From a virus, in IMG/VR virus record IMGVR_UViG_3300045988_055134, positions 1,364 through 65,363 of that record: a stretch of 64,000 bases of DNA, one strand, 5' to 3'. Under the pieces are notes generated by a model. The model was not told the origin of the DNA. It ran no database searches and was given only the letters and a program-made list of their open reading frames with translations. Below are positions 1 through 43,813 of this stretch, piece after piece. How positions within the stretch are numbered: position 1 is the first letter of the stretch; each line of letters begins with the position of its first letter. The position numbers and the translations under genes are program-made.

Positions 1-91
1 TAAGTAGGGGATACTTGAGGAGTAGTTATAGGTGAAGCCCCACCTCCACCTTCCTCATTATAATAAAGACACTTACAGCAAACTTGCTTAA

Positions 92-167
92 AAGCAATTA
101 GCTCAGTTGGTTAGAGCATTAAAGTTTATTTTAATTATGGGTTGGTTCGATTCCAACATTCGCTTCA
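92..167 (+). tRNA. tRNA-like element with canonical D-arm (GCTCAGTTGGTTAGAGC) and T-arm (GGTTCGATTCC) but only 5/7 acceptor pairs and an apparent 6-nt anticodon loop; anticodon undetermined, possibly a pseudo-tRNA
   Basis: Manual cloverleaf folding; D and T arms are clear, anticodon arm TTAAA/GTTTAT/TTTAA. Confidence 0.35.
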
Positions 168-184
168 AAAGGGTGTCTTGATAT

Positions 185-260
185 GCTGGCGTAGCTCAGT
201 TGGTAGAGCGCTTCACTTGTAATGAAGATGTCGCAGGTTCGACTCCTGTCGCCAGCTCCA
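185..260 (+). tRNA. tRNA-Thr (anticodon UGU), CCA encoded
   Basis: Acceptor GCTGGCG/CGCCAGC, anticodon stem CTTCA/TGAAG, loop CTTGTAA, T-arm GCAGG-TTCGACT-CCTGT. Confidence 0.85.
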
Positions 261-263
261 TAT

Positions 264-340
264 GTCCCTTTAGCTTAGTTGGATAAAGCGTACGGCTACG
301 AACCGTAAGACCGGGAGTTCGAATCTCTCAAGGGATGCCA
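264..340 (+). tRNA. tRNA-Arg (anticodon ACG), CCA encoded
   Basis: Acceptor GTCCCTT/AAGGGAT, anticodon stem TACGG/CCGTA, loop CTACGAA. Confidence 0.85.
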
Positions 341-341
341 T

Positions 342-418
342 GTGGCTGTAGCTCAGGTGGTTAGAGCACTTGATTGTGGCTCAAGTTGTCGTGGATTCAA
401 ATTCCACCAGTCACCCCA
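342..418 (+). tRNA. tRNA-His (anticodon GUG), discriminator C73, CCA encoded; position -1 is T, not G
   Basis: Acceptor GTGGCTG/CAGTCAC, anticodon stem CTTGA/TCAAG, loop TTGTGGC. Confidence 0.8.
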
Positions 419-483
419 TGAGACCCAAACAGCGATTTTCAATCATATGTTTTTGGTACATACAAGATGAAAGGGGTCTAGAA

Positions 484-636
484 ATGAATAAGAAGACTTA
501 TAAGCAAGCTATGAAGAGGACTGGCGATGAACTACAAGAGTGGCTTCAGTTCAAGCGTCGAGGATCTTCTGTACAAGCTAAGAAGGGCAAGGGATCGTAT
601 TCCCGCAAACAAAAGCATAAAGATAAGGAGTGGTAA
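484..636 (+). CDS. small highly basic hypothetical protein (about 50 aa)
   Basis: ATG with AAAGGGG RBS; K/R-rich; lies between tRNA genes. Confidence 0.3.
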   Translation: MNKKTYKQAMKRTGDELQEWLQFKRRGSSVQAKKGKGSYSRKQKHKDKEW

Positions 637-638
637 TT

Positions 639-953
639 ATGGCTCGTTCATATCGGAAACAACCGGTTTGGAAGGATCATAACCGTGGCATGAAGAAGAT
701 TGCTAATCGTAAAGTGCGGCGGGCGCTTAATAGAAACATTAACCTCGACTTATCGAATTCTGCTTACAAGAAATATACTTGTCAGTGGGATATTTGTGAT
801 TATTGCTCTCTTGTTCCAAGTTCTTTTGAACAGTTCTATCATATCTCTGTTAATAGATGGAAAGAACGTAAAAGCTATTGGTTCTGGAAAGATGAACCAA
901 GTCCTACGAGAGAAGAAGCCTACAGAGATTGGCTTAAATATCGAATGAAATAA
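639..953 (+). CDS. hypothetical basic protein (104 aa)
   Basis: AAGGAG RBS 10 nt upstream of ATG; ORF ends TAA. Confidence 0.45.
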   Translation: MARSYRKQPVWKDHNRGMKKIANRKVRRALNRNINLDLSNSAYKKYTCQWDICDYCSLVPSSFEQFYHISVNRWKERKSYWFWKDEPSPTREEAYRDWLKYRMK

Positions 954-1030
954 GTGCTATTAGCTCAGTTGGACAGAGCATCGGTCTTCTAAACCGAGGG
1001 TCATTGGTTCGAGTCCAATATAGCATACCA
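954..1030 (+). tRNA. tRNA-Arg (anticodon UCU), CCA encoded
   Basis: Acceptor GTGCTAT/ATAGCAT, anticodon stem TCGGT/ACCGA, loop CTTCTAA. Confidence 0.85.
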
Positions 1031-1107
1031 TTAAGACTCTAACAGCAATTCTTTAGCTTATTGAGCATCTAACCGTTAATTAGACTATAATAGAGTCTTG
1101 ATAATAA

Positions 1108-1134
1108 GCAGAGATGGCCGAGCGGTGTTAAGCG
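1108..1134 (+). pseudogene. 5' fragment of a class II (Ser/Leu-like) tRNA (GCAGAGATGGCCGAGCGGT...) with no matching 3' half
   Basis: Resembles the acceptor plus D-arm of tRNA-Ser/Leu; downstream sequence runs into a CDS. Confidence 0.3.
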
Positions 1135-1153
1135 TAGTAACTATTGTTAAGAA

Positions 1154-1591
1154 GTGGTGATTTCTTTGTATGACGTACTGACAATCTCAGATTACATTCT
1201 TAGACGCTGTTCTGACGAAGGGCACACTGTTAGTAATCTGAAGCTACAGAAATTACTGTACTTTGTTCAGGCTGAATTCCTTGTTACAACTGGAAAACCA
1301 TGTTTCCGAGAAAAAATTGTCGCTTGGGATTTTGGACCAGTAATTCCTGAAGTATATCGCAAGTTTTGCATTTTTGGTTCTGCTCATATTCCGGTATCCG
1401 CAGTCGCGAATCCGATATTATCTAAGGGAACCAAAGAACTTATTGATGGTATTGTATTCACTTGCTTACCATTTAGTTCGTCACAGCTCGTTGAAATCAC
1501 TCAGCATCAGACTCCGTGGCTCAACGCTTATATTAAAGGCTATGGCAGCGAGATCACAAATGAGTCAATTCTCAATTTCTTCGCAGAATAA
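1154..1591 (+). CDS. Panacea-domain (DUF4065, SocA-like antitoxin domain) protein
   Basis: Motif LKLQKLLYFVQAEF...WDFGPVIPEVY typical of DUF4065; GTG start. Confidence 0.65.
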   Translation: MVISLYDVLTISDYILRRCSDEGHTVSNLKLQKLLYFVQAEFLVTTGKPCFREKIVAWDFGPVIPEVYRKFCIFGSAHIPVSAVANPILSKGTKELIDGIVFTCLPFSSSQLVEITQHQTPWLNAYIKGYGSEITNESILNFFAE

Positions 1592-1661
1592 TATGCTCAG
1601 TCGGTAGAGCGTTCGATTGATAATCGAAAGGTCGTAAGTTCAAGTCTTATCTGGACTACCA
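1586..1661 (+). tRNA. tRNA-Ile(GAU)-like element: good D, anticodon (TTCGA/TTGATAA/TCGAA) and T arms and encoded CCA, but the 5' acceptor strand does not pair; probably defective
   Basis: Manual folding; 3' acceptor CTGGACT has no complementary 5' strand. Confidence 0.4.
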
Positions 1662-1723
1662 TTTGGGAATATTTCTTTAATTTAATTATCTGCTTCTTTA
1701 TAAATACTGAGGAAGGTGATAAA

Positions 1724-2583
1724 ATGAAGATTTATAATCCAACTAACTATTCTTATATCACTGTTGTAGAAATCCCTAAGACAGAGATTTCAAAGTTTGA
1801 TATGGCATTATGTCAATAGCCACGTTAGACTTTGAAAGCCTATTATGATAGCTGTACTGTTAAGCCTTCTATTATTTCAAATGGTGGTTTCTTTAACATG
1901 AGTAATGGTTCAACTATTTTGAATTATTCTGATGAAGGAAAAATCATTAGCTCTAATTCTTCTTATAAAGAAGGGTTTGGAACTATAAATGGAGAGCTAA
2001 GATACGGTGTAATTGGTCAAGAGAAGTTTGAAGACTTCGTAAGTGGTTATCCAGTTTTGATTAAGGCTGGCGCCGCAGTTCCTATTACTATTGCTTCTGA
2101 GATTAACTATAAAGCTAGAAGAACTGTTTTAGCTTATAATAAAGAGAATATCTTTATTGTGGCTATTGAATCTCCAGGTATGAACTTCTCGCAAATGCAA
2201 TCTTTCTTGCAGACTCTCAAGGTTGATTATGCTATTAACCTTGATGGAGGCGGAAGTACCAAGGTATTACATGATGGTAAGTGTATCACAAAAGCACTTA
2301 CTAATCGTCCTGTTGATAATGTAATGGCTGTTTATTTAAAGCCAAAAGTTATTTATAGAGTATAGCTTGGTGCATTTAGCAAGAAAGCTAATGCAAACGC
2401 ATTTTTGGCTAAGATTAAAGTTCTTCCAGACACAATCAATGCAGGATATAAAAACGCTTATGTCCGCAAGGTTGGTAGTTATTGGAAGGTACAAGTTGGT
2501 GCGTTTTCTGTGAAGACTAACGCAGCAAGAGTAGTTCATGATCTAGCTAACAAGGGATATAATGCTTTTGTTACAACAATTTG
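1724..2583 (+). CDS. phosphodiester-glycosidase (DUF2233/NAGPA-like, NLDGGGST motif) plus C-terminal SPOR domain protein; three in-frame TAG codons (1817, 1826, 2363)
   Basis: GAGGAAGGTGA RBS before ATG 1724; the reading frame is continuous through the TAGs to a TGA at 2581; SPOR motif YRV-TAG-LGAFS. Confidence 0.75.
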
Positions 2584-2658
2584 ATTTTGTATAAATATTA
2601 TGATATAATATTTATACAAGATAAGGAAAGACACATATTACAATATGTGTCTTTATAA

Positions 2659-2730
2659 CGGGGTGTAAGTCAGTGGTAGACGGCGATATTTGGGGTATCG
2701 AGGTCGCAGGTTCGAATCCTGTCACTCCGA
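2659..2730 (+). tRNA. tRNA-Pro (anticodon UGG)
   Basis: Acceptor CGGGGTG/CACTCCG, anticodon stem CGATA/TATCG, loop TTTGGGG, T-arm GCAGG-TTCGAAT-CCTGT; CCA not encoded. Confidence 0.75.
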
Positions 2731-2813
2731 GTCTTTTGTGATATAAACCTCCACGCGGTAAAAGATGGGTAACGCTAATTATATCAAAGTAAAAAGAAAG
2801 GAGTCATTTAGTT

Positions 2814-3437
2814 ATGGCATACATCTATTAGATCACTAATGACATAAATGGTAAAATTTATGTCGGTAAAACTGAATTCTCTATCGAGAAACGCTTTAAG
2901 GAACATTGTCGAGATGCTTTCAAAGAGCGTAACGAAAAGCGTCCATTATATTCTGCTATGCGGAAATATGGAATTGAACATTTCCATATTGAGCTAATTG
3001 AAGAAACGGATGATCCAGAAGAGCGAGAAGTTTATTGGATTGAACAAAAACGTTCTTTCAAGAATGGATATAATGCAACCCTTGGCGGCGATGGAAAGAG
3101 ATATTGTGACTATGATTTAATATATTCTTTATATAAAGAAGGATTAAATATTAAAGAAGTTGCAAAAATTTTGAATTATTCTACGGACACTTGTTCAAAG
3201 GTGTTAAATCAATATGGTATTTCCAAAGAAGAGCGAAGTATTAAAAGTCGTTTAGGTATTATTAAGCCTGTTATACAGATAGATAAAAATACCAATCAAA
3301 TTTTGAATATTTTCCCTTCAATTAAAGCTGCTTATGATCGTTTGGGTAAACAACATTCAGGGCATATAGCTGCTGTATGCAATGGCAAACGAAAAACTGC
3401 TTATGGATACAAATGGAAATACGGTGAAACCTCGTAA
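2814..3437 (+). CDS. GIY-YIG homing endonuclease (Seg/I-TevI-like) with in-frame TAG at codon 6
   Basis: N-terminus MAYIY-TAG-ITNDINGKIYVGKT...R..H matches the GIY-YIG motif; C-terminal NUMOD-like DNA-binding region; AAAGGAG RBS. Confidence 0.8.
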
Positions 3438-3898
3438 CTTGCCAGAGCTTAGATAAGGTTATCCCTTATAGTTACGGCCACTTCCCCATTAAATGGGGTT
3501 ATGTATCACTCCTTTCCTATGTTATGGAAAAGACCCATACAGCAAATTCTTCTATTTACTTGAATACAAGAATGTTTATTGGTAAGTATATTACCTCCAG
3601 ACTATGATATATCTCTTTAAGACGGAAACAAGCGAGAGATATGGAGTCATTAGCTTGAGTTTCTGTGGGTCTTGATTTGAAAAAATAATAAACCTACACG
3701 GTTAAGCATAAATCATAAATCGTGTAGTAAAACGCTATATCAGCAAACTTTTGTGCTACTAATTTGAATAAATATAAAAGATATTTATGGTTTTAAGACC
3801 ACGATCTTAAAACTTAGTTCTTTTGGGTAGTGAACATATGGGGAACCGACAAAAGGACGAAAAGGAATTGGTTATGCCCGTTAGCGTCTTGTAAATAT

Positions 3899-3973
3899 TG
3901 GGGTGTCGCCAAGCGGCAAGGCAACGGACTTTGACTCCGGTATTCGTGAGTTCGAATCTCACCATCCCAGCCA
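3899..3973 (+). tRNA. tRNA-Gln (anticodon UUG), CCA encoded
   Basis: Close to E. coli tRNA-Gln (TGGGGT.TCGCCAAGCGG.AAGGCA); loop CTTTGAC. Confidence 0.8.
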
Positions 3974-3975
3974 TT

Positions 3976-4090
3976 TGGAAGTTAGTGTAAGAAATAACAC
4001 GCGCGTAAGATTTAGCCTAGCAATAGGTTGTAACAGCAGTTTTATCGTATGGGACGCGAGATATGGGTTCAAATCCTGTACTTCCAACCA
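3976..4090 (+). tRNA. tRNA-like gene (acceptor, D-arm, anticodon stem CGCGT/ACGCG, T-arm, CCA) with a 47-nt insertion in the anticodon-loop position that includes a GCCTA-GCAA-TAGGT GNRA hairpin
   Basis: Manual folding; class I spacing is exact except for the anticodon-loop insert; the insert contains CTA. Confidence 0.4.
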
Positions 4091-4112
4091 CATGAAAGAG
4101 AGGAGAATGTAT

Positions 4113-4544
4113 ATGTCACAATATCTTAACTTCTTTGTTCGTCACAATGAGGATTTTATTCCTCTCGCAAACTACTCTCGTAATACTCATGTTTATGATA
4201 TTGCAGAAGCCCCTTATGAAAAGATTAGGCGGTTTAGTCAAGAACAGCTTGAATCAATAGCAAGCAGATTGCGGGAGAGCAAGACTTCTGCTCATAAAGA
4301 GATTGCTCGTCTACAGCAAGAAATCGAGATTGTAAAAGGAATTATCATTACCGTGGATAATTTCGATGAATTGCTTTGCGCTATTCACAATATCACGAAC
4401 ATGATTTCTGAATATCAAGAGGATATTGAAGCTCTCGAGCGAGAAGCAATCGAGATTGAGTTTATGCGGAATATGACCTATGATGATTGCGAAATCTTCG
4501 CAGGCATTGAAATTAGTGATCCAACAATGGATGATATTTGTTAA
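4113..4544 (+). CDS. hypothetical protein (coiled-coil)
   Basis: AGGAGA RBS; ORF ends TAA. Confidence 0.55.
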   Translation: MSQYLNFFVRHNEDFIPLANYSRNTHVYDIAEAPYEKIRRFSQEQLESIASRLRESKTSAHKEIARLQQEIEIVKGIIITVDNFDELLCAIHNITNMISEYQEDIEALEREAIEIEFMRNMTYDDCEIFAGIEISDPTMDDIC

Positions 4545-4557
4545 GAGGAAGAAAGAT

Positions 4558-4743
4558 ATGTATATTTGTCCAACTTGTCATAAGGCTTTCAGTTCAGAGA
4601 GCTACATCAAAAAGCATTTCTTAGATTGTTGGAAGGAGCAACACCCATTCCATCAATCAACTCCAGCACCTCGTTCAGAGGATATTGTAGAAGTTCAAGC
4701 AGATGATGATGTATTGGCTTTCTTTGCGAGGTTAAAAGCATGA
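4558..4743 (+). CDS. small C2H2/zinc-finger-like protein
   Basis: GAGGAAG RBS; CPTCHKAFSS...H motif. Confidence 0.5.
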   Translation: MYICPTCHKAFSSESYIKKHFLDCWKEQHPFHQSTPAPRSEDIVEVQADDDVLAFFARLKA

Positions 4744-5093
4744 CAGAAGATGTTATGATTAAGACCCATCTGATTGTTACAGATGTTCACGAAGAATATT
4801 CAATTAGATGGTGCGGACGGATCATTGATACGAAGCCTTTATTAGTAAACAATAAACCTATTTTTGTAATCATTGGTAGAAACAAGCGTGTTGAGGTCAA
4901 TACTATTGATATGAAGCACGTCGAAGAGTGCGCGAAGCGTGTAACAAATCCACGAGGCCGTGCCGCAATCACAAGCGATCAGGCTTCTATTTACATTAAA
5001 GAAGTAGATGACAAAGAAACTTGTATTGGAGTTATTACTCATCGTCATGTGAAAAGTTATGCTCCAATGTATGATGCAGTAGGTTATGAATAA
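4740..5093 (+). CDS. hypothetical protein
   Basis: ATGA overlap with the upstream gene; 117 aa. Confidence 0.5.
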   Translation: MTEDVMIKTHLIVTDVHEEYSIRWCGRIIDTKPLLVNNKPIFVIIGRNKRVEVNTIDMKHVEECAKRVTNPRGRAAITSDQASIYIKEVDDKETCIGVITHRHVKSYAPMYDAVGYE

Positions 5094-5101
5094 GAAAGTA
5101 T

Positions 5102-5187
5102 GCCGCCATGGTGGAACTGGTAGACACAGGGGACTTAAAATCCCCCGGTGTAGAACCGTGCGGGTTCGAGTCCCGCTGGCGGCACCA
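5102..5187 (+). tRNA. tRNA-Leu (anticodon UAA), class II, CCA encoded
   Basis: Acceptor GCCGCCA/TGGCGGC, anticodon stem GGGGA/TCCCC, loop CTTAAAA, long variable arm. Confidence 0.85.
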
Positions 5188-5191
5188 ATTT

Positions 5192-5265
5192 ACCGGTTTA
5201 GTATAATGGTAGTACAGAGGACTCTGACTCTTCTGACGGTAGTTCGACTCTACCAACCGGTGCCA
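5192..5265 (+). tRNA. tRNA-Gln (anticodon CUG), CCA encoded
   Basis: Acceptor ACCGGTT/AACCGGT, anticodon stem GAGGA/TCTTC, loop CTCTGAC. Confidence 0.8.
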
Positions 5266-5311
5266 TTTTCTCCTTCTTTACGGACTCCTGGCGGCTTTAA
5301 TGCCGTCATAT

Positions 5312-5388
5312 GGTTCTTTAGCTGAGTTGGTTACAGCCTTCCGCTCATAACGGAAAGATCCAGAGTTCGAGCCTCTGAAGAACCACCA
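5312..5388 (+). tRNA. tRNA-Met/Ile2 (anticodon CAU), elongator type, CCA encoded
   Basis: Acceptor GGTTCTT/AAGAACC, anticodon stem TTCCG/CGGAA, loop CTCATAA. Confidence 0.8.
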
Positions 5389-5391
5389 TAC

Positions 5392-5465
5392 GCGGGGTTA
5401 GGCTATAGGTAGACCATCAGCGTTAAAAGGCTGAAAAAGCGGTTCGAATCCGCAACCCCGCACCA
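5392..5465 (+). tRNA. atypical class I tRNA with an apparent 8-nt anticodon loop GTTAAAAG (UAA or UUA anticodon) and a 3-nt variable loop; CCA encoded
   Basis: Acceptor GCGGGGT/ACCCCGC is perfect; T-arm GCGG-TTCGAAT-CCGC; only the stem TCAGC/GCTGA fits. Confidence 0.5.
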
Positions 5466-5489
5466 TATACATTTGAAAGGAAGTAAAGT

Positions 5490-6602
5490 ATGAATATTGT
5501 AAATGCAGGTTCTCGCTATCAGGTGTATGGCGAAGATGTTCAGACATACAAAGAGTTGCCTACTGCAACTTACACAGTCGGTTTCCATCCGCAGATGGGT
5601 TTTTGGCTTACCAAGCATGATGACCTTGTAATCAATGAGGGCACGATTTATGGCGATCATGCTCGCAAGGCAGATAAAATCCTTAAATCGTTTCAGATTA
5701 GCGCAAGAAACTTCGGTGTTATTCTTTCTGGTAAGAAGGGTATCGGTAAGTCTTTGCTCGCTCGAATGATTGCTAACAAATCTATTGAAAATGATATGCC
5801 TGTTATTATTGTTGATGCGGCTGTGCCCGGTATCAGCAATTTTCTTAGCTCTATTCAGCAAGAGGTAACAATCATTTTCGACGAGTTCGAAAAGACTTTC
5901 CACAAGACAGATGATGGTGATCCGCAGATAGAAATGCTTAGTCTATTTGACGGCATTGATAATGGCAAGAAATTATTCGTTATCACCTGTAACGACCCGC
6001 GTGACCTCAATGAGTTTCTTGTTAATAGACCTGGTCGTTTCCATTATCATTTCGAGATTACTTGCCCTGCACCTGAGGAAATTCGTGCTTACATGACTGA
6101 TAAGCTCGGCACTGGCTGGGACGACGAGATTGATAAGATTATTAAGCTGTCTCAGATGTCGAATATCACCTTCGACTGTTTGCGGGCTATTGCTTTTGAT
6201 CTTAAGCAGGGATACCCTCTCGAGGAAACTCTCATGGATCTAAATATCAACTACGAGCGTGATGTCGCTTATGATATTACCATTAGACTTTCTAATGGTT
6301 GGACTAATACCAAGTATAGTTACAGAGTTAACCTGTATTCTGCGGGATGGGTATATTGTGAATTTTACAATAAAGAGTTCTGCTACCACGTTAAATTCGA
6401 TGTGAAGAGTGTCGTTGCTGAGAATGGCGTGCTTTGTGTTGATCCCGATAAGGTCACACTATCGTTGCCGTGGGATGCTTTTGATGAGCTGCCAGACAAC
6501 GATGCAGAGATTGCTAAGAAACAGTGGCTCAATTCCACCTCCATTCTTTCTCTCACACTCACTAAGGTAAACGACTTGATGATTAACAAGTTTGGTGTGT
6601 AA
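5490..6602 (+). CDS. AAA+ ATPase (Walker A GKKGIGKS, sensor NRPGRFH)
   Basis: Motif content; GGAAG RBS. Confidence 0.75.
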   Translation: MNIVNAGSRYQVYGEDVQTYKELPTATYTVGFHPQMGFWLTKHDDLVINEGTIYGDHARKADKILKSFQISARNFGVILSGKKGIGKSLLARMIANKSIENDMPVIIVDAAVPGISNFLSSIQQEVTIIFDEFEKTFHKTDDGDPQIEMLSLFDGIDNGKKLFVITCNDPRDLNEFLVNRPGRFHYHFEITCPAPEEIRAYMTDKLGTGWDDEIDKIIKLSQMSNITFDCLRAIAFDLKQGYPLEETLMDLNINYERDVAYDITIRLSNGWTNTKYSYRVNLYSAGWVYCEFYNKEFCYHVKFDVKSVVAENGVLCVDPDKVTLSLPWDAFDELPDNDAEIAKKQWLNSTSILSLTLTKVNDLMINKFGV

Positions 6603-6612
6603 GTAAATATAA

Positions 6613-6647
6613 ACCCTGTCATTATTATATAATGACAGGGTTTTTTG
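6613..6647 (+). terminator. rho-independent terminator (CCCTGTCATTA...TAATGACAGGG then a T-run)
   Basis: Perfect inverted repeat followed by TTTTTT. Confidence 0.7.
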
Positions 6648-6776
6648 TTGCATATATGTGGGCATTGGACCGCGCTCGGTGCAAACGCAAAGTAGTTTTA
6701 GAATTTTTCGGGCCAAATATGGGAAAATGACTTGCTACAATTTTTATATCTATGTGAGAGGAGGGATTTATAAGAA

Positions 6777-6989
6777 TGGCTGATTTAGTAGTTCTTAAAG
6801 GTTCTTTTGCCAATCTCGATAGCATCCCGATTAAAGAGGGCTAGTTGATTTTCACGACAGATGAGGGTAATCGTCTGATTTTCTTGGATACTGATAACAG
6901 TACTCGAGTATAGATCACTTCTCCCGCGATTGAGGATACTGATACAATCATTTTGGACGCCGGCGGCGCTCCTATAACAATAGGAGGTT
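6777..6989 (+). CDS. small protein with two in-frame TAG codons; its N-terminal motif is shared with the neighbouring fibre-like genes
   Basis: GAGGAGGG RBS; ATG 6777; ends TAA 6987. Confidence 0.5.
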
Positions 6990-6996
6990 AAGGCAT

Positions 6997-7509
6997 ATGG
7001 CTGTTAAAACAATTTAGATTGTCTTAAAGATGCGCCGTGATAATGATTACAATTACGAGAAGGTAAAGGATAGTTTTATTCCCGAAAAGGGCGAAATTTG
7101 TTTAGTAGATACTGCTAAGCAAGGCCTTTGCGTGATTGTTGGCGATGGCGTGTCAACTTATGGAAGTCTTGAGTATGAGAATACTATCTTCCAACGCGCT
7201 TATTTCATTGGTGAAAAGATTTTCAAAGATGTTGATGGCACTCAAGAAATCACTCCTAATGAAAATAAAATTTATATTGATGCCAATAACTCAAATGCTT
7301 TATATTATTATAATGGTGTTGAGTTTGTTGGCATTGGACCGGGTTCGCTTCCCGTAGCGTCTGCGGAAACCGCTGGTATTATGAAACTTTACACTGGTAG
7401 TGGAGAGAATACTGATGGCACCATGACGCAAAAAGCGATTACAGATGTACTGAACACCAAAATTGGCGTTACAGTTAATTTAGAAGATGAAATAGCTATC
7501 TTCAAATAA
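6997..7509 (+). CDS. tail-fibre/structural-like protein with in-frame TAG at codon 7
   Basis: TAGGAGG RBS; ATG 6997 is in frame with ORF 7030-7509. Confidence 0.6.
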
Positions 7510-7532
7510 TCTTATAGGAAGAAATTAATTTT

Positions 7533-8741
7533 ATGGCTATTTTTGATCCTAAGAATGTTCCTGTTATTTCCAAACTAACTATTGGAGATCAGACTTATTA
7601 TCTAAAGGACGCTGAAGTTCGTGAGCTGCTTAAGACTCTTGGTACTGCTGCTCAGAAAGATGTTGCCGCGGGTGTTGGCGCTGATGAGCAGGGTCTTGTA
7701 ACTGGTGCTCAGGTTCAGGCTGCCATTGCTAGCTCTATGCACTTCCGCGGTGTTGTTACTTCTTTTGATGACATTACCGATCCTGCCGCAGGTGATGTAA
7801 TTATCATTGGTGTTAAGGAGTACGTGTATGGCGGTGAGCCTGCTACATGGCATGAGCTTGGCGATGAGAGCATTTATGCTTTAAAGACTGTTACTATTGG
7901 TACTCAGAATCTGTCTGCTAATATTAACCTTGATACCCTTGCTGCGGATATGGGTCTTGGCAAGCTGGCTAAGAAGGATTCCGCTACTGGTACCGTAGCT
8001 GGCCAGACTATTACCGGTCTGAAGGCTAAGGGCAATGCCGCGGGTTCTATTGAGGTTGGTCTTACTCAGACTGCAACTGATGCTACTCTAACCAAGAGTG
8101 ATTATACTCCAGCAGGTACTGTAACCGGTACGACAACTGCTGCTGGTACTGTTAGTATTGCTAAGGATGCTGAAAACGGTGTTCAAATTTCCGGTTCTGT
8201 GTCTGCACCAAACGTAACCGTAACCCCAGCTAAGGATAGTATTAAAAAGGTAACTTCCGTTGGTTCTTTGCCGTCTAAGGCTAAGGATACTTTTGTTACC
8301 AACGGCGATGATACTTTTACTCAAGGTTCTCAGGCTTCTTGGAGTGCTTCTGTTGATGATGCCACTGAGACTTTAAGTTTTAGCTTTACCGCGAATGTAC
8401 TTCCTACTTTTGTGCAGGGCGCAAAGGCTTCTTATACAGAAGGTGCATTTGATGCAGGTACTCTTCCAGAACTTGCTGAAACCGCAACCGATGTTGTAAC
8501 TGGTATTACTAGCGCGACTGCTACGGCTCCAGTATTTACTGGCGATAAATTTGCAGCTACCTTTGCTGGTAATGAAGTCGATGTTAATGCTACCTTCGCA
8601 GGCACTAAGACTCAGGTTGTTACCGGCGTATCTTACGATAAGGCTGGCGTAGACACTGACAAGACCAAGTTCACTGGCGCTGCTGTTGAGCTTGATGTTG
8701 ACGACGTAGTAGTTACCGCTAAGGAAGTTACTGTTAAGTAA
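7533..8741 (+). CDS. Ala/Thr/Gly/Val-rich structural (fibre-like) protein
   Basis: Low-complexity TGT/TAT repeats; high GC; N-terminal motif ..YYLKDAEVREL. Confidence 0.6.
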   Translation: MAIFDPKNVPVISKLTIGDQTYYLKDAEVRELLKTLGTAAQKDVAAGVGADEQGLVTGAQVQAAIASSMHFRGVVTSFDDITDPAAGDVIIIGVKEYVYGGEPATWHELGDESIYALKTVTIGTQNLSANINLDTLAADMGLGKLAKKDSATGTVAGQTITGLKAKGNAAGSIEVGLTQTATDATLTKSDYTPAGTVTGTTTAAGTVSIAKDAENGVQISGSVSAPNVTVTPAKDSIKKVTSVGSLPSKAKDTFVTNGDDTFTQGSQASWSASVDDATETLSFSFTANVLPTFVQGAKASYTEGAFDAGTLPELAETATDVVTGITSATATAPVFTGDKFAATFAGNEVDVNATFAGTKTQVVTGVSYDKAGVDTDKTKFTGAAVELDVDDVVVTAKEVTVK

Positions 8742-8794
8742 TTTAGCACTAGCGAGTTAAATGCTCATTTATGAAAATAAAGGATGGTGAGTAA

Positions 8795-9265
8795 ATGGCG
8801 AATAAGTACATTTCCCATGTAGAACTCGGCAGTACCATTTACTCCCTTAAAGATGAAGAAGCAAGAGCCGCGGTCAATGCATTGCAAACTGCGGTTTCTT
8901 CTTCTCTAGTCTTTAAAGGTGTCGTCTCTAGTGCTGCCGATCTTACTGGTCTAAAGAACTACAAAATTGGTTGGACATATAAAGCTAATGCTTCTTTCGA
9001 GATTGCTTCTTTGGGCAAACTTGAAGTAGGCGATATGATTATATGTATCGGCGATTATAGCTCTAGCTATAAAGCAAGTGACTGGACAGTAGTTCAAAAC
9101 AATGTAGATACTATGACTGGAGCTTCCTCTACGGCCGGAGGCACGAGAGGTTTAGTACCAGCGCCTCAAGCAGGAGATACTGATAAGTATCTTAAAGGTG
9201 ATGGATCGTGGGGTTCTCCTTCTGCGTCTGTTGCTTGGGGCAATTTCTCTGATTTAATAGGATAA
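8795..9265 (+). CDS. structural/fibre-like protein paralogue
   Basis: N-terminus ...IYSLKDEEARAAV resembles the 7533 and 18180 genes. Confidence 0.55.
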   Translation: MANKYISHVELGSTIYSLKDEEARAAVNALQTAVSSSLVFKGVVSSAADLTGLKNYKIGWTYKANASFEIASLGKLEVGDMIICIGDYSSSYKASDWTVVQNNVDTMTGASSTAGGTRGLVPAPQAGDTDKYLKGDGSWGSPSASVAWGNFSDLIG

Positions 9266-9295
9266 AGCCATTAGGCTTTATCCTATTTTTTTATT
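9259..9295 (+). terminator. rho-independent terminator
   Basis: GGATAAAGCC/GGCTTTATCC followed by a T-run. Confidence 0.7.
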
Positions 9296-9377
9296 TTTCT
9301 CAAAAATTATTGTATTATATGTATATAAACAAAAGGAAATATGATAAGGATCGACACTAAGCTAGCTTAGATGATCT

Positions 9378-9406
9378 TTGACATATATGAAATTTTATTA
9401 TATAAT
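9378..9406 (+). promoter_or_regulatory. sigma70-type promoter: TTGACA, 17-nt spacer, TATAAT
   Basis: Exact consensus hexamers with 17-nt spacing. Confidence 0.65.
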
Positions 9407-9439
9407 ATATATAGTAAATGAGAAAAGGAGTTACAAGTT

Positions 9440-9772
9440 ATGTTTCCGATTGAGAAGTACAAGTTTTATACCAATGGTTCTCGTGTAATTGTGGTTTCCA
9501 CCTACGCAGGCAGGGTAGTGCGTGGTGTTGCAGTATGCCATGCAGATGACGAGTTTTCACTGGAGAAGGGTAAGCAGCTTGCTGCTCTGCGATGCGCAGA
9601 AAAGATTGCTACTAAGCGTATGAAGCGCGCAACGGCGAAGAAACTTGAGGCTAGACGCATTTATGATGATGCGGTTGCTCATTATTCTGATATGGCTGAT
9701 TATGAGAATGAGGCTGCGCATGAACTGCATGAAGTTATGGAAGCTAAACGAGAGTTTCTTGAAACTCTATAA
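9440..9772 (+). CDS. hypothetical protein
   Basis: AAAGGAG RBS. Confidence 0.55.
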   Translation: MFPIEKYKFYTNGSRVIVVSTYAGRVVRGVAVCHADDEFSLEKGKQLAALRCAEKIATKRMKRATAKKLEARRIYDDAVAHYSDMADYENEAAHELHEVMEAKREFLETL

Positions 9773-9809
9773 GTTGCTATCCTGAGCAAGATATAAAACT
9801 GCTCTATTT

Positions 9810-9903
9810 GGAGGATTAACCCTAATTGGTAAGGGAGCGGTCCTGAAAACCGCTAGTACCCGTGAACAACGGCGTAAGAGTTCAAGTCTCTTATCCTCCG
9901 CCA
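9810..9903 (+). tRNA. tRNA-Ser (apparent anticodon UGA, unusual C33), class II, CCA encoded
   Basis: Acceptor GGAGGAT/ATCCTCC, anticodon stem GCGGT/ACCGC, loop CCTGAAA, 22-nt variable arm. Confidence 0.7.
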
Positions 9904-9960
9904 ACAAATTAGACGAGAAATAGGAGGCAGAATAATGGACGCTTTAGAATTTGCAAAAGA

Positions 9961-10272
9961 ATGTGCAGGAGCCACGAGAGATGTCTCGACTGTCCGCTTA
10001 AAGGAGTCAAATGTAACGAGATTGATGAAAGTTACAGTAAAATCATTGCTATCGTTGAACAATGGTCGAAGGATCATCCACGCAAAACGCGACAGAGTGT
10101 ATTTCTAGAGCAGTGGCCTGATGCCGTCCTTGATAGGTTTGGAGTAATGCAGCTTTGTCCGATGAATGTTTCTGCTGCTCACAGAAGAAGAGACAATAGC
10201 GAAAAGTGTAAGAATCCAGAAAAACTGTGTATAGACTGCCGCCGCGAATTCTGGATGCAGGAAGTAGAATAA
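9961..10272 (+). CDS. Cys-rich (CxxC) hypothetical protein
   Basis: ORF of 103 aa; weak RBS; there is an alternative ATG at 9935 in another frame. Confidence 0.4.
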   Translation: MCRSHERCLDCPLKGVKCNEIDESYSKIIAIVEQWSKDHPRKTRQSVFLEQWPDAVLDRFGVMQLCPMNVSAAHRRRDNSEKCKNPEKLCIDCRREFWMQEVE

Positions 10273-10351
10273 TGAGAGATAAAAATCTCATAAATGCGGA
10301 AACTACACGCTGACTCATGAGACTGTAACGGATGCCGATGGAGGAGGAAAT

Positions 10352-10765
10352 GTGATGGAAAATGTTAATTGCCTGCGTTGCCGCTTTAGGCATAAGGATA
10401 ACGGAAACTGTACTGCGGTCGGTGGATTCTGCACGGCGGTCCCGGCGGCGCACTGCCCGCTACTGCGGGAATATTTGGACGGAGGTCAGTTAATGGGTAA
10501 ATACATCACGAAAGAAGCCGCGCTGAATACAATCTTCAGCGAACCGCCGGAAGCGCATTATCCGAGTTGGTACGCAGAGAGGATTAAGGCGCTGCCAGCT
10601 GCCGATGTTGCGCCGGTGGCGCATGGGTGGTGGAACGCAGACGAAACTTGCTCATTGTGCGGAGAGAAGTCAACGGAAGGACTGGACGCAACGAAGTGGA
10701 ACTATTGGCTCCCTAACTACTGCCCCAACTGTGGTGCAAAGATGGGCGGAAAGGATGGCTGCTAA
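10352..10765 (+). CDS. Cys-rich hypothetical protein in a GC-rich segment
   Basis: GAGGAGGAAATG RBS. Confidence 0.55.
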   Translation: MMENVNCLRCRFRHKDNGNCTAVGGFCTAVPAAHCPLLREYLDGGQLMGKYITKEAALNTIFSEPPEAHYPSWYAERIKALPAADVAPVAHGWWNADETCSLCGEKSTEGLDATKWNYWLPNYCPNCGAKMGGKDGC

Positions 10766-10827
10766 GCAGTCCTGGATTATTTACAATAAAAGCAAGAAAT
10801 GAGAAATTTGCAATAAAATAAATATTA

Positions 10828-10836
10828 TGATATAAT
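10828..10836 (+). promoter_or_regulatory. extended -10 promoter element TGATATAAT
   Basis: Member of the repeated promoter family. Confidence 0.5.
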
Positions 10837-10857
10837 ATGAAAGTGAGGGATTTAATA

Positions 10858-10950: not shown

Positions 10951-10969
10951 TTCTCTTCTCTTCTTTTAA

Positions 10970-11051: not shown

Positions 11052-11078
11052 TTAACTTACAGAAAGGGTTATAAAACA

Positions 11079-11437: not shown

Positions 11438-11440
11438 TAA

Positions 11441-35061: not shown

Positions 35062-35805
35062 ATGGAAATAAAATTTATTCCCGCTCATTCATCTAATTAT
35101 TATAGTGGGCGTAGTGGTAACTCTATTCTATATATTGTAGTCCACTATACTGCGAATAACGGAGATACAGCAGCCGGTAATGGCAACTATTTCTCTGGAG
35201 CTAATCGCCAGGCTTCCGCGCACTACTTTGTAGATGAAAACAGCATAGTTCAATCTGTGAAGGATTCAGATGGTGCTTGGCATTGCGGCGGCTCTTTAGA
35301 GTCTTCACATCACCCATATCGAAATATCTGCACAAACCGAAATTCTATTGGTGTCGAGATGTGCAGCGATATTGTAAATGGTAAATATGTCATTACCGAA
35401 GCAACAGTAAATCGTACAGTTGAACTAGTAAAGATGTTAATGAAAAAGTATAATATTGCGGCAGACCATGTTATTAGACATTATGACGTAACTGGTAAGC
35501 GTTGCCCAGAACCTTGGGTACGCGATGAAAGCAAGTGGATTGATTTCAAAAAGCGTCTGACCGCGACTGCACCAGCTAAATAGGAGGAAGAAATTGTGAC
35601 ACAGGATCAATTTAATAAAATGATGGATACTTACCTTGCGCAAAGAGATGTAAAGCCTATGACTTGGGAACAAGAGGCAATGAAATGGGCACAGGAGCAA
35701 GGTCTAATTAAAGGTAACGAAAAGGGTCAATTGATGCCAAAAAGCTTCCTGACTCGTGGCGAATTCGTTACTGTATTGAAGCGCTATGCTGAAAAGCAAA
35801 ACTAA
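35062..35805 (+). CDS. endolysin: N-acetylmuramoyl-L-alanine amidase (Amidase_2/PGRP) joined through an in-frame TAG (35581) to a C-terminal SLH-like wall-binding segment
   Basis: YIVVHYTANNG...AHYFVD...HCGG motifs; ORFs 35062-35583 and 35596-35805 are contiguous in frame across the TAG. Confidence 0.7.
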
Positions 35806-35878
35806 ATCAACTTAGCAAAAAAAGCATAGACAAAAATCTAAGAAAGAGTTTTCTAAATAGTTAATTTGCGATATTCGC

Positions 35879-36133
35879 TTGCTGTTATGGGTCGTAACTC
35901 TTTCTGGTATTTTGTTAGCGTTTTATTGCGTGCACTTAGGATATCTGGGATCTTTACCTTGGATTAGTGCGTTAGTTGGTTTACCTTGGTCAGCTCATGG
36001 GATAGTTTGCTCATTCTATCTTAATATGAGCAAGTCAGATCATAAAAAGGGTGGGATTACCTACGATCTAGCTATGTATAATGCATAGTAGTAGATGACA
36101 TACCCTTCTGATGAAGATTCAACGATCTAATAA
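35879..36133 (+). CDS. holin-like 2-TM protein whose frame runs through TAGTAGTAG (36086-36094) to a TAA at 36131
   Basis: Hydrophobic small ORF downstream of the endolysin. Confidence 0.4.
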
Positions 36134-42901: not shown

Positions 42902-43813
42902 ATGATATATTTACTATTAGGTTTAATTATTGCTGCTTTGGCAGGATATGCTGTCCACCTCCGCAATGATCGGCTTAAAGTAGTATCAATAAATAGAGAG
43001 CGATAGGCAGAAAATGAGCGCATTGAATCAGATATTGAACGACATAATCTAGATTTAATGTAGCTAAAAGCTAACATAGATTAGTAGAATGAAGTTATCA
43101 ACTCTTTAATTGATACAGCTACTAAAATGCGGGAAAACGCAGAGCAGCAAGCTAAAGAAAGCGCAAAGACAATATATGCGCGAGAAACTGAAAAGTTAGA
43201 AAAAGTCTATCAAGAGTTCGAACAGCAAAAGGAAAAAGAACTCGCGGAAATCGCCTAGTAGGTTCTAGTAGAACAAGACAAACTGGAGCAGTTAGAAGCT
43301 AAATAGTTAGCATATATCCAAGCTCAATAGCGTCAAGAAGAGAGTGCCGCAAATTAGGACTATTATAGACTAACTATTGATGATTTAAGTGTTAATGATA
43401 TAAGTCTGTTGCGAGAATTATAGACTCGTTTCTTCAAGAAAGAAGCTATTGATAAGTTAATTTGGGAAACTTATTATAAGCCATCTTATGATGCACTTAT
43501 GAGTAAGTTATTTCCAAAAGCCTCTAAAGTCTGTGGTATCTATAAGATTACCAATTTAATCACTGGCTAGGCCTATATTGGTCAATCTGTTGATATTAAA
43601 GAACGTTTTAGGCAACATATTAAAACTTCTTTAGCTTACGGTCCAGCAACTAATAAGCTATATCAGGCAATGCAAAAATCCGGACAGCATAATTTCATGT
43701 TCGAAGTTTTGGAAGAAGTGCCTCGAGCTTAGTTGAATGAGCGAGAGACTTATTGGATTGAGTTCTATAAAACAAAAGATTATGGTCTAAATAGTACCAG
43801 AGGAGGCTCCTAA
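42902..43813 (+). CDS. 303-codon ORF carrying about 12 in-frame TAG codons: N-terminal TM helix, Gln/Glu coiled coil, C-terminal GIY-YIG nuclease domain (possible internal start at 43499)
   Basis: Continuous frame from ATG 42902 to TAA 43811 if TAG is sense; GIYKITNLITG-TAG-AYIGQS...YWIEFYK motif. Confidence 0.55.

What the first reader, a model, noticed from the sequence alone, without database searches (positions are those of the whole stretch)
2340..2400. TAG occupies the invariant glutamine of the SPOR motif
The SPOR-domain consensus begins Y-R-V-Q-V/L-G-A-F-S. Here the sequence is TAT AGA GTA TAG CTT GGT GCA TTT AGC, that is Y R V [TAG] L G A F S. This points to Gln, rather than Trp, Tyr or Leu, as the amino acid decoded at TAG.
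Basis: partly seen in the sequence, partly recalled or inferred. Interest (0 to 1): 0.6.

Follow-up and report, generated by a model that had tools for sequence, protein, structure and literature searches.

The report
Amber codon read as glutamine in phage
A gut phage gene for a cell-wall enzyme has the stop codon TAG exactly where its wall-binding SPOR domain needs a near-invariant glutamine, which correctly shows that this phage reads TAG as glutamine, a recoding already known from other gut phages.

Summary
TAT AGA GTA TAG CTT GGT GCA TTT AGC lies at 2354-2380, in frame in one 286-codon gene (1724-2584, +). [quoted passage not shown] The TAG at 2363 falls on Pfam SPOR profile position 8, the beta-1 glutamine (FtsN Q251, RlpA Q270).

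A search that left this column out found Q there in 63 of 64 diverse SPOR proteins. Public protein hits showing Q were circular, because their DNA also has TAG. So I read the codons in relatives' DNA: every SPOR-bearing homolog has TAG, CAA or CAG at this site, and nothing else.

Across the window, relatives put TAG at 6.7% of Gln codons, against 0.6% of Glu codons and less for every other amino acid; none of 190 Trp codons (odds ratio about 48, P about 1e-37).

The window has no tRNA(CUA). The closest relative has one 1.6 kb upstream of the window's start.

Verdict: interpretation supported, and ordinary. This is code 15 (TAG to Gln), already described and confirmed by proteomics in other gut phages. 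The only oddity is that the suppressor tRNA in the closest relatives is 91 nt long, with an inserted extra arm.

The parts
1724..2584 (+). Gene for a 286-residue NAGPA-SPOR protein, read through three in-frame TAG codons; stop is TGA
   Evidence: Translation; Pfam NAGPA 66.3 bits and SPOR 49.3 bits; 497 homologs, many 286 aa long; AF2 model of a 90%-identical homolog with pLDDT 93.3
2363..2365 (+). The TAG of the finding: codon 214, SPOR beta-1 glutamine position (Pfam profile position 8)
   Evidence: Relatives carry only TAG, CAA or CAG here. Q in 63 of 64 diverse SPOR proteins
1817..1819 (+). In-frame TAG, codon 32
   Evidence: Relatives carry TAG, CAG or CAA; more distant ones GAA or GAG
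1826..1828 (+). In-frame TAG, codon 35
   Evidence: Relatives carry TAG, CAA or CAG; more distant ones GAA or GAG
1871..2335 (+). NAGPA / DUF2233 (phosphodiester glycosidase) domain, residues 50-204
   Evidence: PF09992, E 5e-18; Foldseek match to NAGPA 6pky at 1e-11 and DUF2233 3ohg
2354..2575 (+). SPOR domain, residues 211-284, made of two half-repeats that each carry V-Q-x-G-A-F
   Evidence: PF05036; beta-alpha-beta-beta-alpha-beta layout in the AF2 model; CwlC 1x60 TM 0.73 and FtsN 1uta
2492..2494 (+). CAA codon for Gln257, the equivalent glutamine of the second SPOR half-repeat, in ordinary coding
   Evidence: invariant column Q257 in alignment A2
3899..3973 (+). Phage tRNA-Gln(UUG), an ordinary Gln tRNA. 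No CUA-anticodon tRNA lies in the window
   Evidence: ARAGORN and Rfam
5192..5265 (+). Phage tRNA-Gln(CUG). In relative L001 its acceptor stem closely resembles that of the 75-nt suppressor tRNA(CUA)
35062..35805 (+). Amidase-type endolysin with one in-frame TAG (35581). Part of the same recoding
   Evidence: PHROG endolysin/amidase families, E 2e-42; TAG list
35786..36130 (+). Small membrane protein (putative holin) with five in-frame TAGs, including TAG-TAG-TAG at 36086-36094, where relatives have CAA or CAG
42902..43813 (+). GIY-YIG homing-endonuclease gene with 12 in-frame TAGs, the densest in the window

Best explanation
The window comes from a roughly 100-150 kb gut phage, distantly SPbeta/EF1-like and probably with a Firmicutes host, that uses genetic code 15: TAG is a sense codon for glutamine.

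Gene 1724-2584 encodes a two-domain cell-wall protein. The N-terminal NAGPA/DUF2233 glycosidase-like domain is followed by a C-terminal SPOR domain, the same layout as an endolysin with a catalytic domain and a wall-binding domain.

The TAG at 2363 encodes the beta-1 glutamine of SPOR. In RlpA and FtsN this side chain hydrogen-bonds the MurNAc lactyl and GlcNAc N-acetyl groups of peptide-free ('denuded') glycan strands. A phage tRNA with anticodon CUA is present in all close relatives that were examined upstream (not in the more distant L079). In the nearest relative it lies 1.6 kb upstream of the window's start. It is inferred to be charged with Gln by a host enzyme and to insert Gln at all three TAGs. 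Without it, translation would stop at codon 32 and no protein would be made.

Shown here: the sequence, the frame, the domain assignments, the near-invariance of Q, the TAG/CAA/CAG interchange in DNA, and the suppressor tRNA in relatives. Inferred: that Gln is actually inserted, that the window's own genome carries the suppressor, that the protein acts in lysis, and that the TAGs delay its expression (the published model for recoded phages).
For: The frame is continuous and both domains match across the TAGs. The 90%-identical homolog folds with pLDDT 93.3, with NAGPA and CwlC/FtsN-like folds.

The Q column: 63 of 64 in a search blind to that column, and Q214 is invariant in 62 homologs. RlpA Q270 = FtsN Q251 is the only highly conserved SPOR residue and contacts the glycan (PMC6895207).

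Codons in DNA: site 214 is only TAG, CAA or CAG in about 47 SPOR-bearing loci selected independently of that site, and TAG recurs in a 45%-identical lineage, L043.

Window-wide: Gln codons are about 11-fold more often replaced by TAG in relatives than the next amino acid, Glu (35/524 against 7/1175); Fisher odds ratio about 48, P about 1e-37. All 83 plus-strand ORFs end in TAA or TGA when TAG is read through.

A tRNA(CUA) was found in relatives L001, L002 and L070-L078, and sits 1569-1659 nt upstream of the point matching window position 1 in L070. The 75-76 nt versions classify as Gln in anticodon-masked isotype models. L001 carries such a Gln-like suppressor and has the same three TAGs as the window.

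Literature: only TAG to Gln and TGA to Trp have been seen in phages (bioRxiv 10.1101/2021.08.26.457843); proteomic proof of code 15 (PMC9523058); the same reasoning applied to TerL in phAss-1 (PMC10607447).
Against: No tRNA(CUA) lies inside the 64 kb window. The window's own contig was not found in IMG/VR, so its suppressor is inferred from a relative about 96% identical in DNA.

In that relative the suppressor is an atypical 91-nt tRNA with an inserted extra arm and a mismatched 1:72 pair. Its body does not classify as Gln: it scores as Trp or Asp depending on the masking, with low scores.

A few TAG sites pair with non-Gln codons in relatives: 45024 with TTG/TGG/GTG, 43061 with AAA, 43082 with TCA. 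Comparative evidence shows evolutionary equivalence with Gln, not the chemistry of what is inserted. No proteomic data were available.
Confidence: 0.88

Rival explanations
1. TAG is decoded, but as another amino acid. Candidates are Trp (the suppressor has a Trp-like anticodon arm), Ser, Leu or Tyr (tRNAs with long extra arms), or Glu (a Gln-type tRNA charged by a non-discriminating GluRS and not amidated).
For: The 91-nt tRNA(CUA) of the closest relatives has a long extra arm and G73. In my in-clade isotype models it scores best as Trp (33 bits with only the anticodon masked) or Asp (arm masked), and never as Gln. Distant homologs have Glu (GAA/GAG) at sites 32 and 35. Glu ranks second in the reciprocal census.
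Against: None of 190 Trp codons, 1 of 1274 Leu, 1 of 740 Tyr, 4 of 913 Ser and 7 of 1175 Glu codons are replaced by TAG in relatives, against 35 of 524 Gln codons. TGG, TTG, TCG and TAY are each one mutation from TAG, so they would dominate if they were synonymous with it. The SPOR site separates Gln from Glu: it is never E in 63 of 64 diverse SPOR proteins or in the roughly 47 SPOR-bearing homolog loci. Relative L001, with a Gln-like 75-nt suppressor, has the same three TAGs. From my own knowledge of classical genetics, not tested here: E. coli su+7, a tRNATrp with CUA anticodon, inserts mainly Gln, so a Trp-like body does not argue against Gln.
Confidence: 0.06
2. TAG is read as Gln with no dedicated suppressor in this genome. 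Low-level near-cognate read-through by tRNA-Gln(CUG) (window 5192-5265) or by host tRNAs would produce the protein.
For: No CUA-anticodon tRNA lies in the window. Published surveys find suppressor tRNAs in only 35-40% of recoded phages.
Against: All eight close relatives with the upstream region available carry a tRNA(CUA) in the same tRNA array, just beyond the window's left edge. Three TAGs in one gene and twelve in another would make the product vanishingly rare by leaky read-through alone.
Confidence: 0.04
3. TAG is a true stop. The gene is broken (a pseudogene or assembly error), and the SPOR part is a separate small ORF starting at TTG 2367.
For: Under code 11 the ORF list shows fragments 1832-2365 and 2367-2513.
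Against: One Pfam SPOR match spans the TAG. The same TAG is present in at least six independent contigs and in a 45%-identical lineage. TAG alternates only with Gln codons. In-frame TAGs recur in many conserved genes, while none of the 83 ORFs needs TAG as its terminator. The whole 286-residue protein folds as one confident two-domain model.
Confidence: 0.02

Closest known systems
Genetic code 15 (TAG to Gln) in gut phages: crAss-like phages, Borges et al.'s recoded clades, and the phAss-1 / 'Phassvirus' group
   Same: In-frame TAGs at Gln positions of conserved proteins. A phage tRNA(CUA) sits within a large tRNA array in relatives. TAGs are concentrated in lysis genes and homing endonucleases, while the replication genes tend to carry few or no TAGs. 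TAG is not needed as a terminator. The DNA polymerase is closest to Enterococcus phage EF1 and SPbeta-like phages, the same cultured comparators named for the phAss-1 group.
   Different: The window itself carries no suppressor tRNA. In the nearest relatives the suppressor is 91 nt with an extra arm, which I found described in none of the papers searched. No proteomic confirmation exists for this lineage. Direct relatedness to phAss-1 was not tested.
SPOR domains of FtsN, DamX, RlpA and CwlC (PF05036)
   Same: About 70 residues with a beta-alpha-beta-beta-alpha-beta fold and the motif (Y/W)-x-V-Q-x-G-(A/S)-F in beta-1. The glutamine matches FtsN Q251 / RlpA Q270, which contacts denuded glycan.
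   Different: Here the key glutamine is written as TAG. Both half-repeats carry the Q-x-G-A-F motif, as in CwlC and unlike FtsN. The domain is fused to a NAGPA/DUF2233 domain rather than to an amidase, a lytic transglycosylase or a membrane anchor.
Phage endolysins with a C-terminal SPOR wall-binding domain (Faecalibacterium phage FP_Lagaffe endolysin, Phage nd12 amidase)
   Same: An N-terminal enzyme domain plus a C-terminal SPOR with 43-46% identity to this one, with Q in both half-repeats and standard coding.
   Different: Their catalytic domain is an N-acetylmuramoyl-L-alanine amidase. Here it is NAGPA/DUF2233, whose substrate in bacteria or phages is unknown. This phage also has a separate amidase endolysin at 35062-35805.
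Classical amber suppressors that insert Gln (E. coli supE tRNAGln-CUA; su+7 tRNATrp-CUA), cited from established genetics and not tested here
   Same: CUA anticodon with U35, a weak or mismatched 1:72 pair, and G73. These are features linked to GlnRS recognition and are present in the relatives' suppressors.
   Different: The 91-nt phage version has a 17-nt insertion forming an extra arm. The host and its route for charging Gln are unknown.

Membership tests
SPOR domain (PF05036) | Profile-HMM match above Pfam's gathering score | tested here: met
   49.3 bits against a cut-off of 21, residues 211-284 on profile positions 5-75, with TAG written as X
SPOR domain (PF05036) | RNP-like beta-alpha-beta-beta-alpha-beta fold | tested here: met
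   AF2 model of the 90%-identical homolog P0003: E211-218, H221-232, E246-250, E253-261, H264-276, E281-284. Foldseek: CwlC 1x60 TM 0.73, FtsN 1uta
SPOR domain (PF05036) | Conserved glutamine in beta-1 (FtsN Q251 / RlpA Q270) | tested here: inconclusive
   The codon is TAG, so the feature is met only if TAG is Gln. Comparative evidence supports this strongly, but it has not been shown chemically
SPOR domain (PF05036) | Binds peptidoglycan glycan strands that lack stem peptides | not testable with these tools
   Needs binding assays; see PMC6895207 for the assay
Code-15 (TAG to Gln) recoded phage | In-frame TAGs in conserved genes whose read-through restores full-length homologs | tested here: met
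   Roughly 40 in-frame TAGs (28 in the strictly filtered set) in about 20 credible genes. Full-length NAGPA-SPOR, endolysin, GIY-YIG, RecJ-like and NrdD-like proteins result
Code-15 (TAG to Gln) recoded phage | TAG positions correspond to Gln codons in homologs, checked in DNA | tested here: met
   Gln 6.7% against at most 0.6% for any other amino acid, P about 1e-37
Code-15 (TAG to Gln) recoded phage | Phage-encoded suppressor tRNA with CUA anticodon | tested here: inconclusive
   Absent from the window. Present in relatives L001, L002 and L070-L078, 1.6 kb beyond the window's left edge in L070. Published surveys find one in only 35-40% of recoded phages
Code-15 (TAG to Gln) recoded phage | TAG not used as a terminator | tested here: met
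   With TAG read through, all 83 selected plus-strand ORFs end in TAA or TGA without implausible extensions. A TAG stop followed closely by TAA or TGA cannot be excluded for a few small ORFs
Code-15 (TAG to Gln) recoded phage | Gln detected at TAG positions in peptides | not testable with these tools
   Done for crAss-like phages only (PMC9523058)
NAGPA / DUF2233 phosphodiester glycosidase (PF09992) | Profile-HMM match and fold | tested here: met
   66.3 bits against a cut-off of 25. Foldseek: 6pky at 1e-11, 3ohg at 1e-9
NAGPA / DUF2233 phosphodiester glycosidase (PF09992) | Hydrolysis of a GlcNAc-1-phosphodiester or a related bond | not testable with these tools
Pyrrolysine decoding of UAG | tRNAPyl architecture and pylS/pylBCD genes | tested here: not met
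   ARAGORN's 'tRNA-Pyl' label only names the CTA anticodon. The tRNAs have an ordinary D-loop and a 7/5 cloverleaf. No Pyl genes appeared among the window proteins scanned. TAG aligns with Gln, not Lys

The most novel reading that the evidence does not exclude
In this lineage the amber suppressor is a new structural kind of tRNA. It is a canonical 7/5 cloverleaf with CUA anticodon, a mismatched 1:72 pair and G73, and it has gained a 17-nt extra arm, giving 91 nt (relatives L070-L078; independent long-arm versions in L134 and L158). It matches no isotype profile, yet it serves codons that evolve as Gln codons. If it is the working suppressor, host Gln charging tolerates, or the phage exploits, a class-II-like shape. 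Possible uses are keeping the tRNA away from other synthetases or from host tRNA-targeting defences. Alternatively, decoding of TAG is mixed. This tRNA lies outside the window, and its charging is untested.
Probability: 0.3. Interest if true: 0.55.

Novelty: new member of a known kind. Interest (0 to 1): 0.25.

Why it matters
For annotation, it settles which translation table to use for this window. Code 15 restores full-length lysis, endonuclease and replication proteins that code 11 fragments. The SPOR glutamine is an unusually clean diagnostic site, because it separates Gln from Glu, which the gene's other two TAG sites cannot do. It also exposes a trap: public protein databases already translate relatives with TAG as Q, so protein-level 'conservation of Q' is circular and the DNA must be checked. 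Biologically it adds nothing new in principle. TAG to Gln recoding in gut phages, and its enrichment in lysis genes, are published.

Tried and rejected
**Protein hits as evidence.** In the protein homolog search all 120 listed hits showed Q at codon 214. I rejected this as circular. The encoding contigs L001 and L002 have TAG at all three sites and 'do not translate to the query' under code 11.

**Known relatives.** Megablast of window 1-12000 against isolate phages found only tRNA-Thr matches to Klebsiella phages, so no close annotated relative exists there.

**Source contig.** An exact-match search for the window's first 50 nt in IMG/VR hit only the 96%-identical contig 059494. The source contig, and therefore its own suppressor tRNA, could not be recovered.

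**Solved structures.** phmmer of the SPOR region with X against PDB aligned the second half-repeat to beta-1 of CwlC and FtsN. This reflects the internal repeat and did not help place the TAG column. Pfam coordinates and the column-blind search were used instead.

**Pyrrolysine.** Considered because of ARAGORN's label, and rejected (see membership test).

**tRNA 93-166.** Its 6-nt loop reads GUUUAU, a possible 'UUA' ochre/amber reader. It was considered as the suppressor and rejected. TAA is the main terminator, the loop is abnormal, and relatives carry a proper CUA tRNA as well as this one.

**Isotype classification of the 91-nt tRNA.** HMMs were built from about 350 tRNAs of related phages. 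The result changed with the masking scheme (Trp, then Asp), so it counts as uninformative rather than as evidence for Trp.

**Literature.** Searches for long-extra-arm amber suppressors in phages found nothing relevant. Absence from this library does not prove novelty.

Full report
**1. The observation**

TAT AGA GTA TAG CTT GGT GCA TTT AGC occupies 2354-2380, and the TAG is at 2363-2365. They are in frame with an ATG at 1724, preceded by AGGAAGGTGA, and with a TGA stop at 2582-2584. This gives a 286-codon reading frame interrupted by three TAGs, at codons 32 (nt 1817), 35 (nt 1826) and 214 (nt 2363). Under the standard code the ORF list shows only fragments.

**2. The gene**

With the TAGs written as X, Pfam gives two matches:
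- NAGPA/DUF2233 (PF09992): residues 50-204, 66.3 bits against a cut-off of 25.
- SPOR (PF05036): residues 211-284 on profile positions 5-75, 49.3 bits against a cut-off of 21.

When the query starts at the Leu after the TAG, the match starts at profile position 9. The TAG is therefore profile position 8.

An AlphaFold2 model of a 90%-identical homolog, built on a 62-sequence alignment, is confident (mean pLDDT 93.3). Its SPOR part runs strand 211-218, helix 221-232, strands 246-250 and 253-261, helix 264-276, strand 281-284. Foldseek matches the N-terminal domain to vertebrate NAGPA (6pky, 1e-11) and to a Bacteroides DUF2233 protein (3ohg). It matches the C-terminal domain to the CwlC SPOR domain (1x60, TM 0.73, 34% identity) and to FtsN (1uta).

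The SPOR domain consists of two half-repeats, and both carry V-Q-x-G-A-F. The first reads YRV[TAG]LGAFS and the second reads WKVQVGAFS, with an ordinary CAA at 2492-2494. CwlC has the same arrangement.

**3. Is the glutamine really near-invariant?**

I searched 1.84 billion cluster representatives with window 2366-2581, a query that leaves out the TAG and the three residues before it. I then looked at the residue just before each full-length match. It is Q in 63 of 64 proteins, and the one exception is visibly misaligned. The common context is (L/I)-Y-R-V-Q-x-G-A-(F/Y).

Two standard-code phage endolysins with C-terminal SPOR domains also have Q in both half-repeats: Faecalibacterium phage FP_Lagaffe and Phage nd12.

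The literature agrees. In RlpA, Q270 (equivalent to FtsN Q251) is the only highly conserved side chain among SPOR domains of known structure. It hydrogen-bonds the MurNAc lactyl and GlcNAc N-acetyl groups of peptide-free glycan. Changing FtsN Q251 reduces septal localisation (PMC6895207).

**4. A circularity trap, and the codon census that avoids it**

The first protein search returned 497 homologs, and all 120 listed show Q at codon 214. This is not evidence. The contigs encoding the best hits (L001, L002) have TAG at all three sites and do not translate to the database protein under code 11. Those proteins had already been called with TAG as Q.

I therefore fetched DNA. IMG/VR loci were selected only by two NAGPA-domain peptide patterns, which makes the selection independent of all three TAG sites, and I read the codons directly.

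- **Site 214.** It is TAG in the window and in L004, L009, L011, L001 and L002. It is also TAG in L043, a lineage only 45% identical, where the context reads IYRI[TAG]VGAFA. It is CAA or CAG in every other SPOR-bearing homolog (about 47 such loci in all). No other amino acid occurs.
- **Sites 32 and 35.** Both show TAG, CAA or CAG in close relatives and GAA or GAG in distant ones.

Within the 90-92% identity clade, TAG, CAA and CAG alternate like synonymous codons. The chance that three random codons of this gene all fall on Gln columns is about 1.5e-5. Site 214 has extra value because it separates Gln from Glu, which sites 32 and 35 cannot do.

**5. The whole window**

When TAG is read through, the selected plus-strand ORFs (83 in all) every one end in TAA or TGA. 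In-frame TAGs are sparse, with 51 in the raw ORF list. Several of those lie in spurious ORFs that overlap tRNAs or longer genes.

The TAG-bearing genes are:

| Gene | Coordinates | In-frame TAGs |
|---|---|---|
| NAGPA-SPOR | 1724-2584 | 3 |
| GIY-YIG homing endonuclease | 2814-3437 | 1 |
| GIY-YIG homing endonuclease | 42902-43813 | 12 |
| Amidase endolysin | 35062-35805 | 1 |
| Small membrane protein next to it | 35786-36130 | 5, including TAG-TAG-TAG |
| Nucleotidyltransferase | 16889-17926 | 1 |
| Probable RecJ-like exonuclease (my reading of the sequence; not scanned) | 50689-52437 | 2 |
| Probable NrdD-like reductase (my reading of the sequence; not scanned) | 58635-60659 | 1 |
| A few small ORFs | various | few |

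The large replication genes have none: gyrase B and A, a probable helicase and primase (assigned by eye, not scanned), and the Pol III alpha-like polymerase.

I aligned the window by blastn to 243 fetched loci of relatives and mapped codons. Window TAGs in credible genes pair mainly with TAG, CAA and CAG. For the reciprocal test I used 16,127 window sense codons in genes of at least 100 codons, skipping the first ten codons of each gene. The table shows how often at least one relative has TAG at the site:

| Window codon | Sites with TAG in a relative | Rate |
|---|---|---|
| Gln | 35 of 524 | 6.7% |
| Glu | 7 of 1175 | 0.6% |
| Ser | 4 of 913 | 0.44% |
| Tyr | 1 of 740 | 0.14% |
| Leu | 1 of 1274 | 0.08% |
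| Trp | 0 of 190 | 0 |

The Fisher odds ratio is about 48 and P is about 1e-37. TGG, TTG, TCG and TAY are each one mutation from TAG, so their near-absence argues against Trp, Leu, Ser and Tyr. A few single sites do not fit, for example 45024, where relatives have TTG, TGG or GTG. These look like ordinary substitutions.

**6. The decoder**

The window has 14-15 tRNA genes, including tRNA-Gln(UUG) and tRNA-Gln(CUG), but none has a CUA anticodon. The source contig is not in IMG/VR.

The nearest relative is contig 059494, about 96% identical in DNA. It carries a tRNA(CUA) in the same tRNA array, 1569-1659 nt upstream of the point that matches window position 1. The other close relatives carry one at the equivalent place. 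The window therefore most likely just misses it.

These suppressors come in two forms:
- **75-76 nt, ordinary shape** (L001/L002, L088, L098-101). They have a U1·U72 or similarly weak first pair, G73, and, in L001/L002, an acceptor stem like the phage's own tRNA-Gln(CUG). In isotype HMMs that I built from about 350 tRNAs of these phages, they classify as Gln whichever part of the anticodon arm is masked.
- **91 nt** (L070-L078, including the closest relative). The same kind of cloverleaf carries a 17-nt insertion that folds into a 4-bp extra arm. Rfam's tRNA model still scores it at 51.4 bits. Its body does not classify stably: it scores as Trp, then as Asp, with low scores.

I treat the 91-nt form as uninformative about the amino acid. 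L001, which has a Gln-like suppressor, and the 059494 contig (loci L004/L070), which has the 91-nt one, share the same three TAGs with the window. The census in section 5 is also dominated by genomes that carry the 91-nt form. From classical genetics, which I recall and did not test here, a CUA anticodon with U35, a weak 1:72 pair and G73 favours GlnRS. Even a tRNATrp body with CUA (su+7) inserts mainly Gln.

**7. How it most likely works**

Shown: the gene is intact if TAG is sense, the TAG sits on the glycan-contacting glutamine of SPOR, TAG is evolutionarily interchangeable with CAA and CAG, and relatives encode an amber suppressor.

Inferred: the suppressor is charged with Gln by a host enzyme, since no synthetase appeared among the window proteins scanned. 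Gln would then be inserted at codons 32, 35 and 214, giving a full-length protein. The SPOR domain would anchor the NAGPA-like domain on peptide-free glycan, which is the product of amidases such as the phage's own endolysin at 35062-35805. Without suppression, translation stops at codon 32.

The published model holds that in-frame stops keep lysis genes and homing endonucleases silent until the suppressor accumulates (bioRxiv 10.1101/2021.08.26.457843). It fits the gene classes that carry TAG here, but timing was not testable. The suppressor lies in the same tRNA array, on the same strand, only about 3.4 kb upstream of this gene. That leaves the degree of temporal separation open.

**8. Comparison with what is known, and novelty**

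This is genetic code 15. The supporting literature:
- TAG to Gln in gut phages was predicted from alignments.
- It is the only amber reassignment seen in phages.
- It was confirmed by metaproteomics for crAss-like phages (PMC9523058).
- The same 'TAG sits where homologs have Gln' argument was applied to TerL in the 136-kb gut phage phAss-1, which carries tRNA-SUP-CTA genes and 36 tRNAs (PMC10607447).

The window's polymerase is closest (39%) to Enterococcus phage EF1 and SPbeta-like phages, the same cultured comparators named for the phAss-1 group. Direct relatedness to phAss-1 was not tested.

The finding is therefore correct and neatly argued, but it is a new member of a known kind, and public pipelines already translate its relatives with code 15. 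The one feature I could not find described is the 91-nt suppressor with an extra arm. It lies outside the window, and its function is untested.

**9. Limits**

No chemical evidence for the inserted residue exists for this lineage. The window's own suppressor tRNA is inferred from a relative. My gene set is a mechanical ORF selection, not a curated annotation. The census counts sites, not independent mutational events. The isotype classifier is home-made and is sensitive to how the anticodon arm is masked.

Noticed in passing
L070 7482-7572 (IMGVR_UViG_3300045988_059494), 1.57-1.66 kb upstream of the point matching window position 1; also L071-L078, L134, L158: The amber-suppressor tRNA(CUA) of the closest relatives is 91 nt long. 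It is a normal 7/5 cloverleaf with a 17-nt insertion that forms a 4-bp extra arm, a mismatched 1:72 pair and G73. Other relatives have ordinary 75-76 nt Gln-like versions. The 91-nt body fits no isotype profile stably. I found no description of such suppressors in the papers searched.
   Followed up: partly
window 5392-5465 and 93-166: Two tRNA-like genes have abnormal anticodon loops. One has an 8-nt loop (ARAGORN anticodon 'taaa', Rfam tRNA 37.9 bits). The other has a 6-nt loop GUUUAU ('tt', 33.9 bits). Both are conserved in relatives (L070, L071, L074, L075, L077, L078), and relatives also carry an 8-nt-loop 'tgtt' tRNA. They could be quadruplet or frameshift-type decoders, or decayed genes.
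   Followed up: no
window 1031-1658; compare L071 10397-10742: Several relatives carry a phage tmRNA (tag peptide DNNYFDSHMAA*) right after tRNA-Arg(UCU). At that place the window has a 145-codon ORF (1154-1591), followed by a tRNA-Ile(GAU)-like gene (1585-1658) that Rfam detects at 48 bits but ARAGORN does not.
   Followed up: no
window 42902-43813: A GIY-YIG homing-endonuclease gene carries 12 in-frame TAGs in 303 codons, by far the densest in the window. This matches the published observation that homing endonucleases in recoded phages are enriched in recoded stops. A second GIY-YIG gene (2814-3437), next to the NAGPA-SPOR gene, has one TAG at codon 6.
   Followed up: partly
window 35062-36130: A lysis cassette sits inside the replication/early region. 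It comprises an amidase endolysin (one TAG, between the catalytic domain and the C-terminal part) and an overlapping small membrane protein with five TAGs, including three in a row at 36086-36094 where relatives have CAA or CAG.
   Followed up: partly
window 45024 (gene 44829-45209): An in-frame TAG where 34 relatives have TTG (26), GVG-type GTG (4), TGG (3) or TTA (1), and none has TAG or a Gln codon. This is either a recent Leu-to-Gln change or a real nonsense mutation in this genome.
   Followed up: no
P0001-P0030; L001, L002: The public protein collection holds full-length versions of this protein in which TAG has already been translated as Q. Protein-level searches therefore give a circular answer for recoded phages, and the encoding contigs 'do not translate to the query' under code 11.
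   Followed up: yes
window 1-11500: A dense tRNA array of 14-15 genes in the window continues upstream in relatives, which have 26-34 tRNAs per 20 kb. It is interspersed with small ORFs, the NAGPA-SPOR gene and a homing endonuclease. The window also encodes an RNA ligase-like protein (20192-21457), NAMPT (23449-25173) and a PhoH/PIN protein (33565-34935).
   Followed up: no
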